A DNA stretch of 64,000 bases. It comes from an uncultured archaeon. GTDB taxonomy: Archaea > Thermoplasmatota > Poseidoniia > MGIII > CG-Epi1. The DNA lies in the NCBI GenBank assembly GCA_964389465.1, contig CAYMDK010000001.1, forward strand, positions 86,852 through 150,851, written 5' to 3'. This document shows, one piece after another, positions 46,165 to 54,292 of the stretch. The notes beneath the pieces are model-generated. The model did no database searches, was not told the DNA's origin, and saw nothing but the letters and a program-made list of their open reading frames with translations. How positions within the stretch are numbered: the stretch's first letter is position 1; each line of letters begins with the position of its first letter. The position numbers were made by a program, and so were the translations under genes.

Positions 46165-48000
46165 GTGGGGCGCCCCTTGTTCCCGTTCCCGGAGCTCCGC
46201 AAGGGGCAGGATGCGATGCTGGATGACTGCCGCACGGCGTTCGCTGGCGGCGAGCACCTGCTGGCGCACGCCCCCACCGGGCTCGGGAAGACCGCCGCGG
46301 CGCTGACCGCCGCGGTCGAGGTGGCGCGCGAGCGGGGGCTGCTGGTGGTGGCGCTGACGTCGCGGCAGACACAGCACGCGATTTTCGTCGAGACGCTGAA
46401 GCGCATCCATGCGCAGCAGCCGCTGAAAATCGTGGACGTGATTTCCAAGCAGGACATGTGTCCACGCGACGACCTTGACGAGAGTCGCTACGGCGTCTTC
46501 CAGGCGGTCTGCACCGCTCTGGTGCGCAACAACGACTGTCGCTACCACGCCGGCTACCGTCCCGAATTCCTGCCTCAGGTTTTCGATTCGCCGCTCTCGG
46601 CCGCCGACCTGAAGGCGCTCTGCCGCGAGGAGGTGCAATGCCCGCACCGCGTCGCGATGGAGGCGGCGCAGGAATGCGATGTGCTGGTGTGCGACTACAA
46701 TTACCTCTTCACCCCGTGGTCCGAAGTGATGTGGGAGCGCATCCAGCGGCCGCTGGAGGAGGTGCTGCTCATCGTGGACGAGGCGCACAACCTGCCCGAC
46801 CGCATCCGGCTCTCCGCATCGCCGACGCTCTCGCTACAGCGGCTTCGCGAGGCGCAGCGCGAGGCGGGCCGCGCGCTGCGCCCGCAGCTCTCAATCCTGG
46901 AGCGGCTGGTCGCGAGCCTGACCGGCCACGAGGGCGAGAAGGAGATTGACGGCGGCAGCGTGACGCGCATGCTCGACGCGGCGCTCAAGCAAAAGCTGAC
47001 CGACCTGGAGGGCTTCGTCAAGTTGCTCGAGCGGTCGGCCCAGCGGCGGCTGCAGCGCGGCAAGGTGGCACGCATGGGTGACGTGGCGGATTTCCTGCAC
47101 CACTGGCGCTTCCTGAAGGAGGGCAGCGACCTGCGACTGGCACACGGCGGCGACAAGCCGTGGCAGCGCAAGCTTTCGCTGCGGCTGCTCGACCCCGCCT
47201 CAATCAGCGCACCGGTCTTCCGCGCCGTGCGCGGCTCGGTGCTGATGTCGGGCACGCTGAAGCCGCGCGGATTCTACCGCGACCTGCTCGGGCTCGACGA
47301 GGAACGCTCCCGCAAGGCGACCTACAGCTCACCCTTCCCCCCCGAGAACCGACTGCTGCTCTGCGTCGACGACGTCTCGACACTCTATCGCAACCGCGGC
47401 GACCCACTCTACCGCAAGCTGGCGGCGTCGCTGACCGCCGTAGCACAGGCGACGCCGGGCAACGTCGCAGCATTCTTCCCGAGCTACGCGCTGCGCGACG
47501 ACGTCGCCAGCCGGCTCGGCGACCATGGCAAAACGCTGCTGCTCGAGGAGCGCGGTGCATCCCCGGCAAAGCGGACGGCGCTGCTCGGCCGACTACAGCA
47601 GCGCAACGCGCTGCTGCTGGCGGTGATGGGGGGCATTTTCGGCGAGGGGGTCGACTACCCCGATAACCTGCTCGCCGCGGTCGCTGTCATCGGGATACCG
47701 GTGCCGCCGCCGTCGCTCGAGCAGAAGAAGCTGGAAGAGTATTTCGAGCGAAAATTCGGCGACGGAAAGGGGCGTCTCTACGCACAGACCTACCCGGCGG
47801 TCAACCGCGTGCTGCAGGCGGCCGGCCGTTGCATCCGCAGCGAAACCGACCGCGGCGTGGTGCTGCTTTACGACAACCGGCTGGGGCACCGCCCCTACCG
47901 CCGCTTCCTCCCGAAAGAAGTGCGGCACTGCACCAGCAGCGCGGTGCCGGCGCTGGTGCGCGGGTTCAACGCCCCCAGAACGGGGAATCCGCCTTCTTGA
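46165..48000 (+). CDS. xpd: ATP-dependent 5'-3' DNA helicase, XPD/Rad3 (DinG) family with FeS-cluster domain
   Basis: Walker A AHAPTGLGKT, DEAH box LIVDEAHNL, four Cys between them (C..C..C..C FeS domain), and C-terminal helicase motifs (GIFGEGVDY). Confidence 0.8.
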   Translation: MGRPLFPFPELRKGQDAMLDDCRTAFAGGEHLLAHAPTGLGKTAAALTAAVEVARERGLLVVALTSRQTQHAIFVETLKRIHAQQPLKIVDVISKQDMCPRDDLDESRYGVFQAVCTALVRNNDCRYHAGYRPEFLPQVFDSPLSAADLKALCREEVQCPHRVAMEAAQECDVLVCDYNYLFTPWSEVMWERIQRPLEEVLLIVDEAHNLPDRIRLSASPTLSLQRLREAQREAGRALRPQLSILERLVASLTGHEGEKEIDGGSVTRMLDAALKQKLTDLEGFVKLLERSAQRRLQRGKVARMGDVADFLHHWRFLKEGSDLRLAHGGDKPWQRKLSLRLLDPASISAPVFRAVRGSVLMSGTLKPRGFYRDLLGLDEERSRKATYSSPFPPENRLLLCVDDVSTLYRNRGDPLYRKLAASLTAVAQATPGNVAAFFPSYALRDDVASRLGDHGKTLLLEERGASPAKRTALLGRLQQRNALLLAVMGGIFGEGVDYPDNLLAAVAVIGIPVPPPSLEQKKLEEYFERKFGDGKGRLYAQTYPAVNRVLQAAGRCIRSETDRGVVLLYDNRLGHRPYRRFLPKEVRHCTSSAVPALVRGFNAPRTGNPPS

Positions 48001-49798
48001 TGCGTTGCAGCTCGGTTATTACATCTTCCTCATCGGGCGTCAGCTTCACGTTTTCGTCGCGCAGGCGCACCACGTCGCGCTCATCCATCTCTATATAAAG
48101 AATATCGCCCTCGTTTACCTGCCGGCCGACGGTCGCCTCGGTTACCGCCACGGCGACTTCATCACCCTGTGTCGCCTCCTTCAACCCTTGCTCCCCGGAG
48201 CGCATCGAGCGGATGCGGCCGATAACGCGGTTGTCGGCGCGCAGCACTTTCTGGCCCACCATGATGCGCCCCGCCAGAACGCGCACGCCGAATACTGCGG
48301 GGTCGCGCGTGCGGAAGGTGTGCCCTTCCAGAAACTCAATTTTACCAGGGTGCGGGAATTCCTCGCGTAACGCCCGTGCCTGCTCGCGCTTCAGCTCCGC
48401 CAGCCACTCGCCGTATTCCTCGACCAGCTGGTAAACCACGTCCGCCTCGAAGAGCTTCGCTTCGCTCTCAACCAGCGCTTCGCGCGCGTCGGGCAGCACG
48501 TTGACGCCGAACGCCAGCACCGCGCGCTGTTCGGCCGGCGCGGTCTCAGCCAGCCGCACGTCGCGGCGCGAGACGTCGCCAACCGCGGCGCGCATGATTG
48601 GCGCGCCCGCTTCCTGCAATTCGTAAGCGAGCGCCTCGAGCGAGCCGATAGCGTCGGCGCGCACGACCAGCCCGCGGTCCTCGAGCGCGACGTTGCTCTC
48701 CATCTCGCCCGAAAGCCGCTCCAGCACCGGCGCGACATCGTCGCCTTGCGGGACTCCGTAGAAGGGCGCGCCGGCGATGACGCCTTCAAGGTCGGGCGCG
48801 ACCACTTTCAGGCCGGCGGCAGCGGATACCTCCGTGACCGTGCTGAATTGCTGGCGCGGGTCGCGAATCTCGTCCAACGGCCGCGGCTGCAGCAGACTGC
48901 GCACACGCGTTACCAGCGGCTCGGGCGTCGCGCCGATGACCAGCGTGTCGCTCGCGCGCAGGACGCCGTTGTAGATGATGACGCCCAGCGTCTTGCCGAG
49001 CCCGCGCTCCTCCTTGACTTCGAGCACGGTCCCTTCGGCAAGGCCAGCCTTCAGCGCCAGCCGCCCCTCGAGATAGCGCTGCGCCAGCCCCATCAGCAGC
49101 ATGAACAGCTCGGGGACCCCCTCGCCGCTGTCGCGGACCGACGTGGGCACCAGTGCAATCGTCTTCTGGAAATCCTCGACTTCGGAGTAGAGCGCCGAAT
49201 CGAAGTTGTGTCCGCCCAGCTCGCGCACTATTTCCCAGATGCGCTCCTGCAAGCCATTCTGCGCCAGCTGTGACTGCTCCTGCCGGTTTGCGGCGAAAGT
49301 GCCCTTGCGGGTGCGCCAGCCGGGGAGCCGGTCTATCTTGTTCAGCACCAGGATAAAGGGCGTCTGCGCCCGCCGCAGCACCTGTAGCGACTCGATGGTC
49401 TGCGGCTTGAACCCCTCCATGATGTCGACGACCAGCACCGCCAGGTCCGCCAGCTGTCCCCCGCGTGCGCGCAGGGTACTGAAGGAGTGGTGGCCGGGGG
49501 TGTCGATGAAGAGCAAGCCGGGGAGCCGGATGTTCTCCTCCGGCAGCAGCGCGCCGCAAATTTCCTGAATGGTCTCGAACGGCACCTCGGTCGCGCCGAT
49601 GTGCTGCGTAATCGCGCCCGCCTCACGGCTTACGACCGCGGTGCCGCGTACCCAGTCAAGCAGCGACGTCTTGCCGTGGTCGACGTGCCCCAGCACCGCT
49701 ACGATCGGCTGCCGCAGCGGTCCCGCCGGAGGCTGTTCCTCGTCCGGGGAGTCGGCGTTCGCCACCTCGTCGTCGCTGGCCATCAGGACCGGCCGCAC
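47966..49798 (-). CDS. infB: Translation initiation factor aIF-5B / IF-2 (InfB)
   Basis: GTPase G1-G4 motifs (GHVDHGKTSLLD, DTPGH, NKID) and a C-terminal beta-barrel domain. 610 aa. Confidence 0.9.
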   Translation of the reverse strand: MRPVLMASDDEVANADSPDEEQPPAGPLRQPIVAVLGHVDHGKTSLLDWVRGTAVVSREAGAITQHIGATEVPFETIQEICGALLPEENIRLPGLLFIDTPGHHSFSTLRARGGQLADLAVLVVDIMEGFKPQTIESLQVLRRAQTPFILVLNKIDRLPGWRTRKGTFAANRQEQSQLAQNGLQERIWEIVRELGGHNFDSALYSEVEDFQKTIALVPTSVRDSGEGVPELFMLLMGLAQRYLEGRLALKAGLAEGTVLEVKEERGLGKTLGVIIYNGVLRASDTLVIGATPEPLVTRVRSLLQPRPLDEIRDPRQQFSTVTEVSAAAGLKVVAPDLEGVIAGAPFYGVPQGDDVAPVLERLSGEMESNVALEDRGLVVRADAIGSLEALAYELQEAGAPIMRAAVGDVSRRDVRLAETAPAEQRAVLAFGVNVLPDAREALVESEAKLFEADVVYQLVEEYGEWLAELKREQARALREEFPHPGKIEFLEGHTFRTRDPAVFGVRVLAGRIMVGQKVLRADNRVIGRIRSMRSGEQGLKEATQGDEVAVAVTEATVGRQVNEGDILYIEMDERDVVRLRDENVKLTPDEEDVITELQRIKKADSPFWGR

Positions 49799-49816
49799 GG
49801 CGGACGCTAAAAAAGC

Positions 49817-50059
49817 TCACCGCATTACGGAAAAGCGGCTCATAATCCTGAGCAGCCGCTCGCTCATGTCGGGGGTGATGATGCCTTCCCCGGTTTTCTC
49901 TTCCAGCAGGTCGGCCGCGGCGCCCAGCGTTTCGCGCGTCGCCAGCGCTACCAGCGTGGCGATGAACGGCTCAACCTCTTTCTCGCCAAGGTCCGATTCC
50001 TGTAGCACCTCGTCCAGGAAGTAAATCGTCTCGGTCCGGCGTGCGGGATTGAGCATGCG
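49817..50059 (-). CDS. Small hypothetical protein (~80 aa) between the SSB-zinc-knuckle gene and infB
   Basis: In-frame ATG (MLNPARRTETIYFLDEV...) within track ORF 49817..50470. The upstream part of that ORF is an out-of-frame read of the zinc-knuckle repeats. Confidence 0.35.
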   Translation of the reverse strand, partial: RMLNPARRTETIYFLDEVLQESDLGEKEVEPFIATLVALATRETLGAAADLLEEKTGEGIITPDMSERLLRIMSRFSVMR

Positions 50060-50156: not shown

Positions 50157-50759
50157 TCAGTTCCCCCGGTCGGGGCAGTTGCGGGAGATGTGGCCCGGCT
50201 TGCCACAATTGAAACACTTGCCGCCGCCCGGCTTCCCGCCGCCACCTTCAGGGCAGTCGCGCGAAATGTGGCCCGGCTTGCCACAGTTGAAACATTTGCC
50301 GCCGCCCGGCTTCCCACCGCCGCCTTCAGGGCAGTCGCGCGAAATGTGGCCCGGCTTGCCACAGTTGAAACATTTACCGCCACCACCGCCGCCCCGACCA
50401 CCGCCGCGTCCGCGGTCCGGCCGCGGCATCGCGTACGCGAGGTCGGAGAGGTTGAGGTCATCACGGACACTCCCCACTTCCCGGCCGGGCTTGCCCAGCG
50501 AGCCGAACTTGCCGAGGCTTAGGCGGAGCGAACCGCGCACCAGCGTGGCGCGCGCATCCTTGAGCCAGATGGTCGCATCGACCGCCACCTGGTCACATTC
50601 CTCGTTCCAGAAACTCATCACAATCGTGCCGGTTTCGTCGCCTACCAGTCCCTCGCAAACACGCCCGCCGCTCTCGATATCGCGGGGCTCGTCCATCGAC
50701 AGCACCTTGACTGCCATACTGATGCGACTGCTGCGCGGGGTCAACTCGTCTACCCTCAT
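50157..50759 (-). CDS. SSB-like single OB-fold protein fused to Gly-rich linker, RGG box and three CCHC zinc knuckles
   Basis: The OB fold is similar to crenarchaeal SSB / RPA OB (..VGDETGTIVMSFW...GSLRLSL). Linker GRGGGRGGGGGG. Three copies of CFNCGKPGHISRDC (C-x2-C-x4-H-x4-C). The ATG at 50759 has TATA ttatatgg 22-29 nt upstream; the track GTG at 50810 would cover that promoter. Confidence 0.65.
   Translation of the reverse strand: MRVDELTPRSSRISMAVKVLSMDEPRDIESGGRVCEGLVGDETGTIVMSFWNEECDQVAVDATIWLKDARATLVRGSLRLSLGKFGSLGKPGREVGSVRDDLNLSDLAYAMPRPDRGRGGGRGGGGGGKCFNCGKPGHISRDCPEGGGGKPGGGKCFNCGKPGHISRDCPEGGGGKPGGGKCFNCGKPGHISRNCPDRGN
50174..50407. repeat. Tandem direct repeat, 3 x 78 bp, near-identical (codes the zinc-knuckle units)
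   Basis: Units begin at 50174, 50252 and 50330 (ggcagt[tc]gcg[cg]ga[ag]atgtggcccggcttgccaca[ag]ttgaaaca[ct]tt[gt]ccgcc...). Units 2 and 3 differ by only a few nt. Confidence 0.8.
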
Positions 50760-50778
50760 CGGCTGCGCCGAGACTGGC

Positions 50779-50791
50779 CTCCATATAACGG
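50779..50791 (-). promoter_or_regulatory. TATA box for the SSB-zinc-knuckle gene (leaderless)
   Basis: Reverse complement ccgTTATATGGag, 22-29 nt upstream of ATG 50759. Confidence 0.35.
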
Positions 50792-50931
50792 TTGAGATGC
50801 ACCCATTCACCCATAAAGTATAATAACCAAAAAGGGTAAATCACATAATCACCATTAAGTTTATAACCCCTAGTGGGGTGTGTAGTCTGTCCCGGGGTGG
50901 AGTCCTGGGGTGAAACAAAAGGAGAAACTCC

Positions 50932-52266
50932 ATGCAAGCAAACGAAACCGACTTTGGGCCGCATGTCAAGGACATTGCAGAGGCCCTGGAAAACAAACTG
51001 GACGAAGCCACGATTGTCGAAGAACTGAGGCAATACGTGGAGAACTACGGCATCGACCTGGCAACCGCCAAGGAGGCGATTGTCCGGAAGCACTACGGCG
51101 ACCCCCGCACGTTGCAAGCCAGCGCATTCATGCCGCTGGCTGACATCAAAGCGGACGAGTCATCGGTCAGCTTCCGCGCGAAAATCGTGTCTGTGTTCTC
51201 GAAGGAAATCAACCTGAAAGATGGCTCGCAGAAGACCATTTTCGAGGGGCAAATCGCCGACGGGAGCGCTACCCTGCGCTTCACAGTCTGGCGTGACGAG
51301 TTCACGGCCGAGCCGGGGACTATCCTCGAGGTCATTAACGCCTATTCCAAAGGCTGGAAAGATCGCGTCGACCTGAACCTGGGCGACCGCTGCCGGGTGC
51401 GGGAGGTCGAGGACGAGACGCTGGCGGCGCTGGATGTGCCGACGGCCGACAGCCCGACCGCCGGCTCCGCGAGCGACGTTGCTGGACTACGGAACGGCAT
51501 GGGCTCAGTCGCGCTGACCGTGCGCATCCTGGATGTGCAGGAGCGCGAGGTGACCGTGCGCGGCGAGCCAAAGACGCTCTGGAGCGGGACGCTGGCAGAC
51601 GCCAGCGGTAGCTGCCGTTTCACTGCCTGGCACGACCACAAACTACAGGCAGATACCATCTACGAAATCGGTAACGCCTACGTGCGCGAGTGGCAGGGCA
51701 TCCCCGAGCTGCAAATCAACGAAAACACCGCAGTGGGCACGGTTGACGCCGAACTCCCGTCGCTGGAAGAACTGGCGGTGGGGACCAGCTACACTATCGG
51801 CCTGCTCGACGAGCGCGGCGGCGCTAGCGACGCGCTCCTGGAGGGACACGTGCTAGCAGTGCGCGAGGGCAGCGGACTGATTTTCCGCTGCCCCGAGTGC
51901 AACCGCGTGCTCCGCAGCCGGCAGTGCATGGTGCACGGCGAGCAGGAGGGACAGCCCGACCTGCGGACCAAGCTGCTCTTCGACGACGGCACCGGTTCGC
52001 TACAGCTATTCCTGAACCGCGAGCTGACCGAGAAGGTGCTGGGGCGCGACCTCGATTCGTGCCTCGAGCTGGTGCGCGAGAACTACTCGGCCGAGGCGCT
52101 GACCGAAGAGCTGGAGCAGGCACTCCTGCTCAAGCCACTGATAGTGGAGGGGTACACCCGCTCCGACGACTACGGCCTGATGTTCTTCGCGCGCAAGTGC
52201 CAGCCGGCACACAACCTTGACGTGCCCTCTGTCGCCAGGCAATTCCTGGCGGCACTGGAGGCCTGA
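50932..52266 (+). CDS. rpa: Replication protein A large subunit (RPA41-like: two OB folds + C-terminal zinc finger)
   Basis: Two OB-fold ssDNA-binding domains and C4 zinc finger (CPECNRVLRSRQCMVHGE). SD-like aaggag 8 nt upstream of the ATG. TATA about 65 nt upstream. Confidence 0.8.
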   Translation: MQANETDFGPHVKDIAEALENKLDEATIVEELRQYVENYGIDLATAKEAIVRKHYGDPRTLQASAFMPLADIKADESSVSFRAKIVSVFSKEINLKDGSQKTIFEGQIADGSATLRFTVWRDEFTAEPGTILEVINAYSKGWKDRVDLNLGDRCRVREVEDETLAALDVPTADSPTAGSASDVAGLRNGMGSVALTVRILDVQEREVTVRGEPKTLWSGTLADASGSCRFTAWHDHKLQADTIYEIGNAYVREWQGIPELQINENTAVGTVDAELPSLEELAVGTSYTIGLLDERGGASDALLEGHVLAVREGSGLIFRCPECNRVLRSRQCMVHGEQEGQPDLRTKLLFDDGTGSLQLFLNRELTEKVLGRDLDSCLELVRENYSAEALTEELEQALLLKPLIVEGYTRSDDYGLMFFARKCQPAHNLDVPSVARQFLAALEA

Positions 52267-53223
52267 ATGGCGCGTCGCAGGGAACCGGCCCTTCCGGTAC
52301 TGGCGCAGGAGCTTTCGCGCGCCCACGAGACGCATGTCGAGGACCGCGAATATTCGCCCACCTATCTTATTTCGGAGATGGGGTCCAAACTCTCGCGCGT
52401 GCTCATCGGCGGCATCCTGACCGACGTCGAAAACCGTGGCAGCGAGGCGGACCCGTTCTACATGGCGCGCATGGTTGACCCTCACGGCGACACCTACTAC
52501 CTGCGCGCCGGGCAGTACAATCCCGAAGGCGCCGCGGCACTCTCGAAAATCGAGACGCCCACACACGTAATCTCCGTCGGGAGGGTGCGTGCCTACTCAC
52601 CCGACGACAGCGACTCAGTCTACGTCAGCGTCCAGCCCGAGAACGTGCGCGCGGTCAGCGAGCAGGAGGTTTCGGTCTGGGCGGTCAAGGCGTGCGAATC
52701 GTTGATGCGCCGCCTGAAGGGCGACGATGCCGAGCTGAGCAACCGCGAAAAGGAAGGGCTCGGCCTGGCGCAGGAAAAATACGAGACTGTCTCGACTGAA
52801 TCCTACGCCGGGCTGCTCTACGACTGCCTGCGGAACCTCAGCGGCGATACGACTGCGCCGAGCACGGCGCAGTTCACCGGCGAGTTCGAGACTGCCAGCG
52901 ACGTGGAAGTGGCCGCGACGGAGCTGGAAGCGGCTCCGTCGGCAGCGGAACCGCCCGCACCCGAAGCGCCGCAGGACGCCCCCGCAGGCGACGAAACGCC
53001 TGACGGGGAGCCGGAAGACGATGCGGACGCCGAGGCGGCCGTGCTCGAACTCATAAGCTCGCTCGACAAGGAAGGCGACGGAGAAGGCGTAATCTACGAA
53101 ACGCTGCGCGATTCCGCAGCGGCGGCCGGCATCGACGGCTCGCGCCTCGACGAGGTCATCGACTCGCTCAACGACCAGGGGCTGACCTACCAGCCGGCGT
53201 TCAACAAGTTCCGGGTGGCATGA
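52267..53223 (+). CDS. RPA32-like / RPA-associated protein: OB fold + acidic linker + C-terminal winged-helix domain
   Basis: Starts 1 nt after the rpa stop. Central OB-like region, Ala/Glu/Pro-rich linker, and a C-terminal helix-rich ~60 aa (VLELISSLDKEGDGEGVIYETLRDSAAAAGIDGSRLDEVIDSLNDQGLTYQ) resembling the RPA32 C-terminal wH domain. Confidence 0.55.
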   Translation: MARRREPALPVLAQELSRAHETHVEDREYSPTYLISEMGSKLSRVLIGGILTDVENRGSEADPFYMARMVDPHGDTYYLRAGQYNPEGAAALSKIETPTHVISVGRVRAYSPDDSDSVYVSVQPENVRAVSEQEVSVWAVKACESLMRRLKGDDAELSNREKEGLGLAQEKYETVSTESYAGLLYDCLRNLSGDTTAPSTAQFTGEFETASDVEVAATELEAAPSAAEPPAPEAPQDAPAGDETPDGEPEDDADAEAAVLELISSLDKEGDGEGVIYETLRDSAAAAGIDGSRLDEVIDSLNDQGLTYQPAFNKFRVA

Positions 53224-53345
53224 TGCCGAGCAAGTCTGTACGCGAGTTCCTCGAGGCTATCGCTCCTCGCTGGGAAGACCCACATGAATTTGACTGGCTG
53301 CGGGAAGTCGAGCTACCGCTGGTAACCATTCCCCGGAGGCGCTGA
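53220..53345 (+). CDS. 41-aa micro-ORF translationally coupled between RPA32-like gene and radA
   Basis: ATGATG overlaps the upstream TGA (ATGA). The ORF's own TGA overlaps the radA ATG (TGATG). Protein [41 protein letters not shown]. Not in the ORF track (<60 aa). Confidence 0.3.
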
Positions 53346-54292
53346 TGGGCAAGAAGGAAGAATCCATCGAGGACCTGCCCGGCGTCGGCCCCGCCATCGC
53401 CGAGAAACTGCGCGAGGGGGGCTACCGCACGCTTGAGTCAATCGCGACCGAGTCGCCTTCGCGGCTCTCGGATGCGGCCGGTATCGGCGACTCGAGCTGC
53501 GCCAGCATCATCGCCGCGGCGCGCAAGCTGGCCGACATCGGCGGCTTCCTGACCGGCGCAGAGCTGCTCGAGAGGCGCAGCACCGTCGGCAAGGTTACCA
53601 CCTGCTCGAGCGAGCTGGATTCGCTGATGGGCGGCGGCATCGAGACGCAAGCAATTTCCGAGTTCTACGGCCAGTATGGCTCGGGCAAAACCCAGATTGT
53701 CCACCAACTGGCGGTGACTGTGCAACTGCCAGAGGAACAGGGCGGCCTTGACGCGGAGGCGGTAATTATCGACACCGAGAATACCTTCCGCCCCGAGCGC
53801 ATAGTCTCAATGGCGAAAGCGCTCAACCTGGACCCCGACGAGGCGCTGGCGCGCATCCACGTCGGCCGCGCCTACAACTCGCACCAGCAGATGCTGATGG
53901 TCGAGAAAGCGCAGCAACTGGCCGAGGAACGTCCCATCCGGATGCTGGTCGTCGATTCGCTGACCGGAGCGTTCCGGTCGGAGTATATTGGCCGGGGCGT
54001 GCTCGCCGAACGGCAGGGAAAAATCAACAGTCACATGGAGTCGCTGGGGCGCTTTGCAGACTTGCACAACGCCGTAGTGGCTGTTACCAACCAGGTGCAT
54101 TCCAAACCAGATGCCTTCTTCGGCGACCCGACCAAGCCGATTGGCGGCCACATTGTTGGCCACACCTCGAAATTCCGGGTCTACATCCGGCGTGGCAAGG
54201 CGGGCAAGCGTATCTTCCGGCTCGTTGACTCGCCACACCTGCCCGACGGGGAAGCTGTAGTGCAGATCCTGGAAGAGGGTATCCGCGACTAG
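53345..54292 (+). CDS. radA: DNA repair and recombination protein RadA
   Basis: N-terminal HhH domain ([17 protein letters not shown]) and RecA core with Walker [10 protein letters not shown] and Walker B LVVDSL. 315 aa. Confidence 0.9.

What the first reader, a model, noticed from the sequence alone, without database searches (positions are those of the whole stretch)
50157..50810. SSB-type OB-fold fused to RGG box and three CCHC zinc knuckles, divergent from rpa
The N-terminal ~100 aa align with the archaeal SSB/RPA OB fold (VGDETG...W...G.L.LS pattern). The C-terminus is a Gly-rich linker, an RGG box and three C-x2-C-x4-H-x4-C knuckles. RGG plus CCHC knuckles is an architecture normally associated with eukaryotic RNA/ssDNA-binding proteins such as CNBP, Lin28 and retroviral NC, and is unusual in Archaea. 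The three knuckle units sit on a near-perfect 3 x 78-bp tandem DNA repeat, so the copy number has expanded recently and may vary between strains. The gene shares a divergent promoter region with rpa, which suggests a role in ssDNA or RNA metabolism co-regulated with RPA, RPA32 and RadA.
Basis: partly seen in the sequence, partly recalled or inferred. Interest (0 to 1): 0.8.

Follow-up and report, generated by a model that had tools for sequence, protein, structure and literature searches.

The report
Archaeal SSB with zinc-knuckle tail
A deep-sea planktonic archaeon (Marine Group III) has a small single-stranded-nucleic-acid-binding protein whose usual floppy tail carries 2-4 "retrovirus-type" zinc knuckles, a build otherwise seen in eukaryotic RNA chaperones such as plant cold-shock-domain proteins, so it looks like an independent archaeal invention (or borrowing) of that design.

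Summary
The gene (best start ATG 50759, stop 50157, minus strand, 200 aa) encodes one Ssb-like OB fold (PF21473), a short RGG box and three C-x2-C-x4-H-x4-C knuckles (PF00098, E 1.7e-26). The window is 100% identical to a hypothetical protein of Marine Group III (MGIII) euryarchaeote CG-Bathy2.

The OB is the Saccharolobus SSB / human hSSB1 type by sequence and predicted fold. It keeps only one of the three base-stacking aromatic residues. RGG tails are normal for this family; the knuckles are the new part.

Only the high-GC (0.56-0.65) MGIII lineage has knuckles, with 1-4 copies across assemblies. Low-GC MGIII orthologues at the same conserved locus (radA<-rpa32-like<-rpa<-|->ssb->79-aa gene) carry an unrelated C-terminal module. 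None of the other 148 listed 50%-identity clusters of OB relatives has a knuckle. The nearest knuckle relatives are eukaryotic CNBP-like proteins.

Internal repeat units are near-identical within a genome, and the terminal unit is orthologous between genomes. This points to recent duplication or conversion.

Most likely function (inferred): a multivalent single-strand nucleic-acid chaperone, probably RNA-biased, analogous to plant CSD-Gly-CCHC proteins. It is a new variant of a known kind and of moderate interest.

The parts
50157..50759 (-). Coding sequence of the OB-RGG-3xCCHC protein (200 aa plus stop), start ATG 50759
   Evidence: ORF. It is 100% identical to P0001, 'hypothetical protein BEU05_00410, Marine Group III euryarchaeote CG-Bathy2'. 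All orthologues start at MRVDEL/MKVDEL.
50484..50738 (-). Ssb-like OB fold (aa 8-92)
   Evidence: Pfam PF21473, E 1.5e-12. AF2 pLDDT 71-90 per 10-residue block over aa 11-90, five strands. Foldseek top hits are hSSB1 and Sso SSB. W51 equals Sso W56; R70 and V74 replace Sso W75 and F79.
50376..50423 (-). RGG box (aa 113-128, RPDRGRGGGRGGGGGG)
   Evidence: Read directly from the sequence. R113, R116, G119 and G120 are invariant or near-invariant across 54 MGIII homologues. RGG/GY-rich tails are common in distant relatives.
50331..50372 (-). Zinc knuckle 1, CFNCGKPGHISRDC (aa 130-143)
50253..50294 (-). Zinc knuckle 2, CFNCGKPGHISRDC (aa 156-169)
   Evidence: It differs from knuckle 1 at 1 of 54 nt of the core.
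50175..50216 (-). Zinc knuckle 3 (terminal), CFNCGKPGHISRNC (aa 182-195)
   Evidence: It groups with the terminal units of other genomes, all of which end CP[DE]RG.
50173..50381 (.). 78-bp tandem DNA repeat encoding the Gly linker plus knuckle units (2.7 copies, 93% matches)
   Evidence: TRF; unit comparison.
50781..50789 (-). Conserved TATA-like box GTTATATGG about 26 nt upstream of ATG 50759. It implies a leaderless or near-leaderless mRNA.
   Evidence: Invariant block in the alignment of 8 high-GC MGIII intergenic regions. Its function is inferred.
50860..50866 (+). TATA-like box TTTATAA facing rpa, 66-72 nt upstream of the rpa ATG at 50932
   Evidence: Conserved block TAGGGGTTATAAACTTAA. 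Its function is inferred.
49817..50056 (-). Conserved 79-aa gene immediately downstream, probably co-transcribed with the SSB gene; predicted four-helix bundle of unknown function
   Evidence: Adjacent to the SSB gene in all 37 MGIII loci. The 100-nt gap has no T-run or AT-rich box, and a T6 run at 49809-49814 follows its stop codon. AF2 pLDDT 88. No family or fold match.
50932..52266 (+). Divergently transcribed multi-OB RPA with a zinc motif (444 aa)
   Evidence: NCBIfam PRK07218, E 2.3e-97; weak Pfam OB hit.
52267..53223 (+). RPA32-like second subunit (318 aa), start codon immediately after the rpa stop
   Evidence: A 319-aa protein with an internal OB match and a similar C-terminal end (..EEGLIYEPSFDKFRIL against ..[16 protein letters not shown] here) turned up among the OB relatives (P0248). 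No Pfam hit above threshold.
53345..54292 (+). RadA recombinase
   Evidence: Pfam Rad51, E 8.9e-81.

Best explanation
This is the Marine Group III orthologue of the archaeal single-OB 'SSB-1'/hSSB1-type protein. In the high-GC, deep-water MGIII lineage, its disordered RGG tail has been extended by a tandem array of CNBP/retroviral-type CCHC zinc knuckles.

Proposed mechanism (inferred): three kinds of weak, sequence-tolerant single-strand binders sit on one flexible chain.
- The OB groove keeps the W51 stacking residue.
- The RGG box contributes electrostatic and G-rich contacts.
- Each knuckle keeps the Phe after the first Cys, which in NC/Lin28-type knuckles stacks on an unpaired base.

Together they would give multivalent, zinc-dependent capture of unpaired, preferably G-containing, RNA or ssDNA. 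The protein would hold strands open and so act as a nucleic-acid chaperone. This is the archaeal analogue of plant CSD-Gly-CCHC cold-shock-domain proteins, rather than the replicative SSB, whose role the adjacent RPA/RPA32 pair presumably fills. The array grows and shrinks by duplication or conversion of the internal 78-bp unit.

Shown: domain composition, phylogenetic restriction, conserved locus, repeat dynamics, purifying selection on the knuckles. Inferred: substrate, chaperone activity, and any link to cold or high-GC transcripts.
For: Architecture:
- Pfam OB plus 3 knuckles.
- Sequence matches to solved structures and Foldseek matches to Sso SSB, hSSB1 and At4g28440.
- AF2 predicts a confident OB and a disordered tail.

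The knuckles are under selection:
- All 22 units from 8 genomes keep CFNCGKPGH[IF]S..C.
- Synonymous sites differ at up to 16 of 54 nt.

Lineage restriction and orthology:
- 7 high-GC MGIII species carry knuckles and 30 low-GC MGIII species carry a different tail.
- All sit at the same locus.
- No knuckles occur in the other 148 clusters among the best 150 OB relatives, many of which have RGG tails.

A full RPA, RPA32-like subunit and RadA are encoded next door, so the replicative SSB role is presumably covered.

Two of the three stacking aromatics of Sso SSB are lost (W75->R70, F79->V74), whereas most relatives have Y/F at those positions.

Family precedent:
- SisSSB is dispensable for replication, melts dsRNA and RNA/DNA hybrids, gives a cold-sensitive deletion, and its OB core complements the E. 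coli csp quadruple mutant (PMC10684826).
- Sso SSB binds ssRNA as well as ssDNA (PMC5346138).

Analogous architecture:
- AtGRP2 is a CSD plus Gly-rich regions plus 2 CCHC knuckles (PMC11602973).
- The cold-shock-domain protein CSDP1 complements the cold sensitivity of E. coli BX04 and melts DNA (PMC1802614).

The closest knuckle matches are eukaryotic CNBP/HEXBP-like proteins.
Against: - No biochemical or expression data exist for this protein or for any MGIII organism, all of which are uncultured.
- The conserved divergent pairing with rpa-rpa32-radA would equally fit a DNA-repair or recombination role.
- CCHC arrays such as trypanosomatid UMSBP/HEXBP bind ssDNA, so RNA bias is not implied by the knuckles.
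- CSDP2 did not complement in E. coli, so the architecture alone does not guarantee chaperone activity.
- The cold/high-GC rationale rests on a single evolutionary event (one clade), so the correlation has n=1.
- Whether MGIII lacks Csp/TRAM homologues was not tested.
- AF2 confidence for the knuckles is low (pLDDT 32-63 per 10-residue block over the tail).
Confidence: 0.55

Rival explanations
1. It is an accessory DNA-metabolism SSB that works with RPA, RPA32 and RadA, in the way hSSB1/SOSS-B1 works beside RPA in eukaryotes. The knuckles would add affinity for G-rich ssDNA at resected ends or replication forks. Expression would be coordinated with rpa through the shared divergent spacer.
For: - The divergent rpa/ssb arrangement, with rpa32-like and radA downstream of rpa, is conserved in all 37 MGIII loci across 36-65% GC.
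- The top structural match is hSSB1, a DNA-repair SSB.
- An XPD-type helicase gene lies nearby.
- Zinc-knuckle arrays such as UMSBP/HEXBP bind ssDNA (own knowledge; HEXBP-like proteins are among the nearest knuckle hits).
Against: - There are two separate TATA-like boxes rather than one shared element.
- Two of three stacking aromatics are lost in the OB.
- The characterised archaeal family member is not needed for replication or for DNA-damage tolerance (PMC10684826).
- The gene appears to be co-transcribed with an unknown 79-aa gene lying just upstream of aIF5B, not with DNA genes.
Confidence: 0.3
2. It is a sequence- or structure-selective regulator, a CNBP/Lin28-like binder of G-rich or G-quadruplex elements in particular transcripts or genomic sites of a 62% GC genome, rather than a general chaperone.
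For: - The knuckle sequence is almost the CNBP/NC consensus, and RGG boxes are classic G4 binders (own knowledge).
- The nearest knuckle relatives are CNBP-like proteins.
- The high-GC clade alone has the knuckles.
Against: - Knuckle number varies from 1 to 4 between close relatives, which fits avidity tuning better than a fixed recognition code.
- The three knuckles are nearly identical, so they cannot read a complex motif.
- No candidate target motif was found or sought.
Confidence: 0.12
3. It is an artefact: an assembly chimera or eukaryotic contamination has joined a CNBP-like fragment to an archaeal SSB gene, or the repeat number was inflated by mis-assembly.
For: - Four metagenome contigs end inside the array.
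- One close relative on a 3.7x-coverage contig has a knuckle-less tail with broken synteny.
- Identical 14-aa knuckles exist on eukaryote-like marine contigs.
Against: - The fusion is present, in frame and with the same C-terminal ending, in 7 independent species-level MAGs plus 9 metagenome contigs that hold OB and knuckle(s) in one complete ORF, from different oceans and assemblers. Flanks are identical and syntenic on contigs up to about 190 kb.
- GC and GC3 of the tail match the OB part.
- Mis-assembly normally collapses repeats rather than expanding them.
Confidence: 0.03

Closest known systems
Saccharolobus (Sulfolobus) SSB, the archaeal 'SSB-1' single-OB protein (PDB 1o7i, 2mna, 7wcg)
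   Same: - One OB fold of the same Pfam family (PF21473), with the GDETG motif and the W56-equivalent tryptophan.
- It is followed by a flexible Gly/Arg-rich tail.
- Sequence match E 2.8e-7 and Foldseek E 5.6e-6.
- It is likely to bind both ssDNA and ssRNA and to act as a chaperone, by analogy (PMC10684826, PMC5346138).
   Different: - The acidic protein-interaction end of the Sso tail is replaced by 2-4 CCHC zinc knuckles.
- Sso W75 and F79 are R70 and V74 here.
- It scores below the NCBIfam equivalog cut-off (85.7 against 188 bits).
- It coexists with a full RPA, unlike most Crenarchaeota.
Human hSSB1/SOSS-B1 (NABP2) and Arabidopsis At4g28440 OB-fold protein (PDB 5d8f, 4oww, 1wjj)
   Same: - hSSB1 is the best structural match (5d8f, E 5.4e-7, target TM 0.71) and At4g28440 is the best sequence match (1wjj, E 6.5e-10).
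- The plant protein shares the Arg at the Sso-W75 position.
- hSSB1 acts beside, not instead of, RPA.
   Different: - Neither protein has zinc knuckles.
- hSSB1 works inside the SOSS/Integrator-associated complex, which has no archaeal counterpart shown here.
Plant cold-shock-domain proteins (AtGRP2/CSDP2, CSDP1, wheat WCSP1) and animal Lin28
   Same: - The order of parts is the same: a small beta-barrel nucleic-acid-binding domain, then Gly-rich/RGG linkers, then repeated CCHC knuckles in variable number.
- They have documented RNA-chaperone or DNA-melting activity and cold complementation in E. coli (PMC1802614, PMC11602973).
- A plant cold-shock protein was hit through the knuckles (P0100).
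   Different: - The N-terminal barrel here is an SSB-type OB (PF21473), not a cold-shock domain (PF00313).
- There is no homology outside the knuckles, so this is analogy or convergence, not family membership.
CNBP / HEXBP / UMSBP and retroviral nucleocapsid zinc knuckles
   Same: - The C-x2-C-x4-H-x4-C spacing is identical, with Phe after Cys1 and the G-x-x-G-H core.
- HIV-1 NC matches at E 4e-7, and CNBP-like proteins are 45-65% identical over the array.
- Knuckles are strung on Gly/Arg linkers.
   Different: - Those proteins have no OB fold.
- They are eukaryotic or viral.
- Here the array is a C-terminal appendage of a vertically inherited archaeal gene.

Membership tests
Ssb-like OB family (PF21473; archaeal SSB-1 / hSSB1 type) | A single OB fold matching the family profile above the curated threshold | tested here: met
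   48 bits against a 24-bit cut-off, E 1.5e-12. Foldseek top 11 hits are all hSSB1, Sso SSB or At4g28440.
Ssb-like OB family (PF21473; archaeal SSB-1 / hSSB1 type) | Base-stacking aromatic triad of Sso SSB (W56, W75, F79) | tested here: not met
   Only W51 (equivalent to W56) is kept. R70 and V74 replace the other two in every MGIII sequence. Among 108 relatives, the W75 position is Y/F/W in 92 and the F79 position is F/Y in 78.
Ssb-like OB family (PF21473; archaeal SSB-1 / hSSB1 type) | Flexible Gly/Arg-rich C-terminal tail ending in an acidic protein-interaction segment | tested here: inconclusive
   The RGG segment is present and predicted to be disordered. The acidic end is absent and replaced by knuckles. 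Tails vary widely across relatives.
NCBIfam PRK06461 'single-stranded DNA-binding protein' equivalogs | Whole-protein score above the curated equivalog cut-off | tested here: not met
   Best model NF005049 scores 85.7 bits against a 188-bit cut-off. The protein is related but not an equivalog.
Ssb-like OB family (PF21473; archaeal SSB-1 / hSSB1 type) | Binds ssDNA and/or ssRNA | not testable with these tools
   This needs EMSA or ITC with recombinant protein.
zf-CCHC zinc knuckle (PF00098) | C-x2-C-x4-H-x4-C spacing with the G-x-x-G-H core, above the curated threshold | tested here: met
   Three units, 91.5 bits against a 20.8-bit cut-off. The spacing is kept in all 22 units of 8 genomes and in the metagenome copies.
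zf-CCHC zinc knuckle (PF00098) | Aromatic residue after Cys1, needed for base stacking in nucleic-acid-binding knuckles | tested here: met
   Phe is present in every unit. The criterion is as stated in PMC9369019.
zf-CCHC zinc knuckle (PF00098) | Zinc coordination | not testable with these tools
   This needs metal analysis or a Zn-dependent binding assay.
Cold-shock-domain proteins with CCHC knuckles (plant CSDPs, Lin28) | N-terminal cold-shock domain (PF00313) | tested here: not met
   There is no CSD hit. The N-terminal domain is PF21473. This is an analogue, not a member.
Euryarchaeal RPA (multi-OB with internal zinc motif) | Several OB folds and a C4-type zinc motif within the last OB | tested here: not met
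   The protein has a single OB and no internal zinc motif. RPA models score 27 bits or less. The true RPA is the neighbouring gene at 50932-52266.

The most novel reading that the evidence does not exclude
A deep-ocean archaeal lineage acquired a CNBP-like RGG/zinc-knuckle cassette from a marine eukaryote and grafted it onto its SSB-1 gene. This recreated the plant CSDP/Lin28 architecture in Archaea. The resulting zinc-dependent RNA chaperone would be an adaptation that keeps GC-rich transcripts unfolded at 2-4 degrees C. Knuckle copy number would act as a rapidly evolving dial of chaperone strength.
Probability: 0.2. Interest if true: 0.7.

Novelty: new variant of a known kind. Interest (0 to 1): 0.55.

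Why it matters
- It would be the first archaeal SSB-family protein shown to carry retroviral/CNBP-type zinc knuckles. No paper in the searchable library links zinc knuckles to an archaeal SSB.
- It offers a natural experiment on tail modules. Orthologous genes at one locus carry either knuckles (deep, high-GC clade) or an unrelated helical module (surface, low-GC clade).
- It gives a testable case of convergent or borrowed evolution of the 'barrel + Gly-rich + knuckles' chaperone design known from plants and animals.
- It bears on the recent claim that archaeal single-OB SSBs are RNA chaperones rather than replication factors.
- Practically, a small cold-active, zinc-dependent strand-melting protein could be a useful reagent.

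Tried and rejected
1. Viral origin. An exact degenerate knuckle pattern found nothing in IMG/VR, and tblastn of the whole protein found nothing in 50,697 phage records.

2. DNA-level trace of a eukaryote-to-archaeon transfer. Eukaryote-like marine contigs encode the identical 14-aa knuckle core, but they differ at 7-10 of 45 nt, which is no closer than chance synonymous usage. The test is uninformative.

3. A knuckle-less close relative (P0008) as evidence for tail loss. Its 3.7x-coverage contig loses synteny exactly after the Gly-rich region, and its tail is not a frameshift of the knuckle DNA. It was treated as a probable chimera.

4. Identity of the conserved 79-aa downstream gene. It has no Pfam, NCBIfam or PDB sequence hit, and only 5 close homologues were found. 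It gives a confident four-helix AF2 model but no Foldseek PDB match better than E 0.28.

5. Pfam identity of the alternative tail in low-GC MGIII: none found.

6. The Haro-Moreno 2017 MGIII paper could not be read. The 'bathypelagic versus epipelagic' reading therefore rests on the record names CG-Bathy2/CG-Epi1 and on GC content.

7. An exhaustive census of zf-CCHC in Archaea was not possible.
Full report
**What is there**

- The window holds an ORF at 50157..50810 on the minus strand.
- Its conserved start is the ATG at 50759, giving 200 aa.
 - This product is 100% identical to 'hypothetical protein BEU05_00410 [Marine Group III euryarchaeote CG-Bathy2]'.
 - Every relative begins MRVDEL/MKVDEL.
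 - The 51 nt upstream contain a conserved TATA-like box, GTTATATGG (50781-50789), about 26 nt before the ATG. This suggests a leaderless mRNA.
- Pfam finds one Ssb-like OB fold (PF21473, aa 8-88, E 1.5e-12) and three zinc knuckles (PF00098, E 1.7e-26).
- Between them lies RPDRGRGGGRGGGGGG, the RGG box.
- The knuckles are CFNCGKPGHISR[DN]C at aa 130-143, 156-169 and 182-195. No other in-frame CCHC knuckle occurs in the 64 kb; one further regex match on the + strand spans a stop codon.

**The OB domain**

- Sequence comparison with solved structures gives Arabidopsis At4g28440 (1wjj, 6.5e-10), Saccharolobus SSB (1o7i, 2.8e-7) and, weakly, SOSS-B1. The tail hits HIV-1 nucleocapsid (4e-7).
- An AlphaFold model built on 54 homologues has a confident five-stranded barrel (pLDDT 71-90 per 10-residue block over aa 11-90) and a disordered tail.
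- Foldseek against the PDB ranks hSSB1/SOSS-B1 (5.4e-7), Sso SSB (5.6e-6) and 1wjj first, ahead of RPA domains.
- NCBIfam's archaeal SSB equivalog models match, but below their cut-offs (85.7 against 188 bits).
- Of the three stacking aromatics of Sso SSB, only W56 (here W51) is kept. W75 and F79 are R70 and V74 in all MGIII sequences, whereas most of 108 relatives have Y/F/W and F/Y at those positions. The OB is a genuine but modified member of the family.

**Distribution**

- A scan of one genome per GTDB species found 37 MGIII loci.
 - Seven high-GC genomes (0.56-0.65) encode OB-RGG-knuckles, with 2, 4, 3, 2, 3, 3 and 2 knuckles.
 - Thirty low-GC genomes (0.36-0.47, including CG-Epi1) encode OB-RGG followed by an unrelated ~40-aa module (..LMKLKRDTGNKKFFNRDEMSEEQIEAAIKEMGGE) and no knuckle.
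- All 37 share the gene order radA <- rpa32-like <- rpa <-|-> ssb -> 79-aa gene. These are orthologues whose C-terminal module was exchanged.
- A filter-free HMMER search with the OB-RGG part against 1.84 billion cluster representatives gave 509 hits.
 - Among the best 150, only the cluster represented by the high-GC MGIII protein P0003 has knuckles.
 - Many others have RGG/GY-rich tails, so the RGG box is the family norm.
 - One relative ends in a C4 zinc motif.
- A search with the tail alone returned only CNBP/HEXBP-like proteins. Every named source was eukaryotic: fungi, nematodes, diatoms, dinoflagellates, plants.
- An exact degenerate knuckle pattern found nothing in viral contigs.
- In metagenomes it found 27 stretches, either MGIII ssb genes or eukaryote-like genes.
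- No paper in the searchable library links zinc knuckles with an archaeal SSB.

**The repeat**

- TRF reports 50173-50381, period 78, 2.7 copies, 93% matches.
- In the 54-nt knuckle core, units 1 and 2 differ at one base and unit 3 differs at nine.
- Across eight genomes, the last unit (ending CP[DE]RG) groups with the last units of other genomes. The internal units are nearly identical within a genome (1-2 differences) and share genome-specific synonymous variants.
- The ancestor of the high-GC lineage therefore already had at least two knuckles. The internal unit has since been duplicated or homogenised repeatedly.
- All 22 units keep CFNCGKPGH[IF]S..C while synonymous sites diverge by up to 16 of 54 nt. 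This shows purifying selection.
- Metagenome contigs add complete genes with 1, 3 and 4 knuckles. However, four contigs end inside the array, so short-read copy numbers, especially the one-copy versions, are not reliable.
- A knuckle-less close relative sits on a 3.7x contig that loses synteny exactly at the Gly-rich region. It is probably chimeric.

**Surroundings**

- The 172-bp spacer to rpa holds two TATA-like boxes, one for each direction (50781-50789 and 50860-50866). Both are conserved in eight high-GC loci.
- This is a divergent promoter region, but co-regulation is not demonstrated.
- Downstream of ssb there is no T-run or AT-rich element before a conserved 79-aa gene (49817-50056). 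A T6 run (49809-49814) follows that gene's stop, 11 nt before the aIF5B start. ssb and the 79-aa gene are therefore probably one transcript.
- The 79-aa protein is a confident four-helix bundle with no recognisable relatives.

**How it most likely works**

- Established for the family:
 - Sso SSB binds ssRNA as well as ssDNA (PMC5346138).
 - S. islandicus SSB is dispensable for replication and increases at low temperature. Its deletion is cold-sensitive, it melts dsRNA and RNA/DNA hybrids, and its OB core rescues an E. coli strain lacking four Csps (PMC10684826).
- Established for the analogous eukaryotic design:
 - AtGRP2 is a cold-shock domain plus Gly-rich regions plus two CCHC knuckles (PMC11602973).
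 - The cold-shock-domain protein CSDP1 rescues the same E. coli strain and melts DNA, whereas CSDP2 does not (PMC1802614).
 - Nucleic-acid-binding knuckles need an aromatic residue after the first Cys (PMC9369019), which is present here.
- Inference: the MGIII protein is a multivalent single-strand binder and chaperone.
 - A somewhat weakened OB groove is supplemented by an RGG box and 2-4 zinc knuckles on a flexible chain.
 - The adjacent RPA/RPA32 pair presumably serves replication and recombination.
- The knuckles occur only in the high-GC lineage named 'Bathy'. Deep-water lineages generally have higher GC (PMC10205998). This suggests, but does not show, a link to keeping GC-rich RNA or DNA unfolded in the cold.
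- I put this reading at about 0.55, a DNA-repair accessory SSB at about 0.3, a sequence-selective CNBP-like regulator at about 0.12, and an artefact at about 0.03.

**Origin of the knuckles**

- This remains undetermined.
- Identical 14-aa knuckle cores with RGG linkers occur on eukaryote-like marine contigs, but nucleotide comparison is uninformative.
- GC and GC3 of the tail match the rest of the gene.
- Acquisition from a eukaryote and convergence both remain open.

**Verdict**

- There are four corrections: the start codon, the imperfection of the repeat, the ordinariness of the RGG box, and the unproven co-regulation.
- The protein is already in databases as an unnamed hypothetical or 'CCHC-type domain-containing' protein, but it appears undescribed.
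- It is a new variant of a known kind: an SSB-1/hSSB1-type OB protein with a novel, copy-number-variable zinc-knuckle tail, restricted to one uncultured deep-ocean archaeal lineage.

Noticed in passing
window 49817-50056 (-); also L002-L037 just downstream of the ssb match: A conserved 79-aa gene is always adjacent to ssb in MGIII (37-96% identity). It is probably co-transcribed: no T-run lies in the 100-nt gap, and a T6 run at 49809-49814 follows its stop. It is a confident four-helix bundle with no Pfam, NCBIfam, PDB-sequence or Foldseek match, so it is an MGIII-specific partner of unknown function.
   Followed up: yes
L008-L037 (e.g. L014:4001-4516), orthologous ssb genes of low-GC MGIII: After the RGG box, the low-GC ('Epi') MGIII orthologues carry a different conserved ~40-aa C-terminal module (W..LMKLKRDTGNKKFFNRDEMSEEQIEAAIKEMGGE) instead of knuckles. 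It has no Pfam hit. This is a tail-module swap between sister lineages.
   Followed up: partly
window 50888-50910 (+): A direct repeat, GTCCCGGGG / GTCCTGGGG separated by 5 nt, lies between the rpa-facing TATA-like box (50860-50866) and the rpa ATG (50932). It is conserved in eight high-GC MGIII loci and could be an operator or a 5'-UTR element for rpa.
   Followed up: no
L053, L054, L056, L065 (metagenome contigs): These contigs terminate inside the knuckle array. The 78-bp repeat breaks short-read assemblies, so the one-knuckle versions (L042, L059) may be collapsed.
   Followed up: partly
L040:3001-3990: A close relative (97% identical in the OB) has a Gly/Lys-rich knuckle-less tail followed by an unrelated gene instead of the 79-aa gene. 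Contig coverage is 3.7x, and the junction falls in the GGC-rich region. It is probably a chimeric assembly.
   Followed up: yes
P0166 (distant OB relative, 203 aa): This protein ends in a C4 motif, CADCGKDCEIPFTPTQSRPVYCRDC, after a Gly/Arg/Tyr-rich linker. It is a second, independent case of a zinc module appended to this OB family.
   Followed up: no
L041 and L044 (GC 0.64-0.67), L048/L055/L058 (GC 0.44): These marine eukaryote-like contigs encode RGG-rich proteins, some with an RRM. Their knuckles begin with the same CFNCGKPGHIS segment, and in L041/L044 the whole 14-aa core is identical to the MGIII core. They are possible donors or simply convergent consensus knuckles.
   Followed up: partly
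window 47966-48000: The 3' ends of the convergent XPD-type helicase gene (46165-48000, +) and the aIF5B gene (47966-49798, -) overlap by 35 nt.
   Followed up: no
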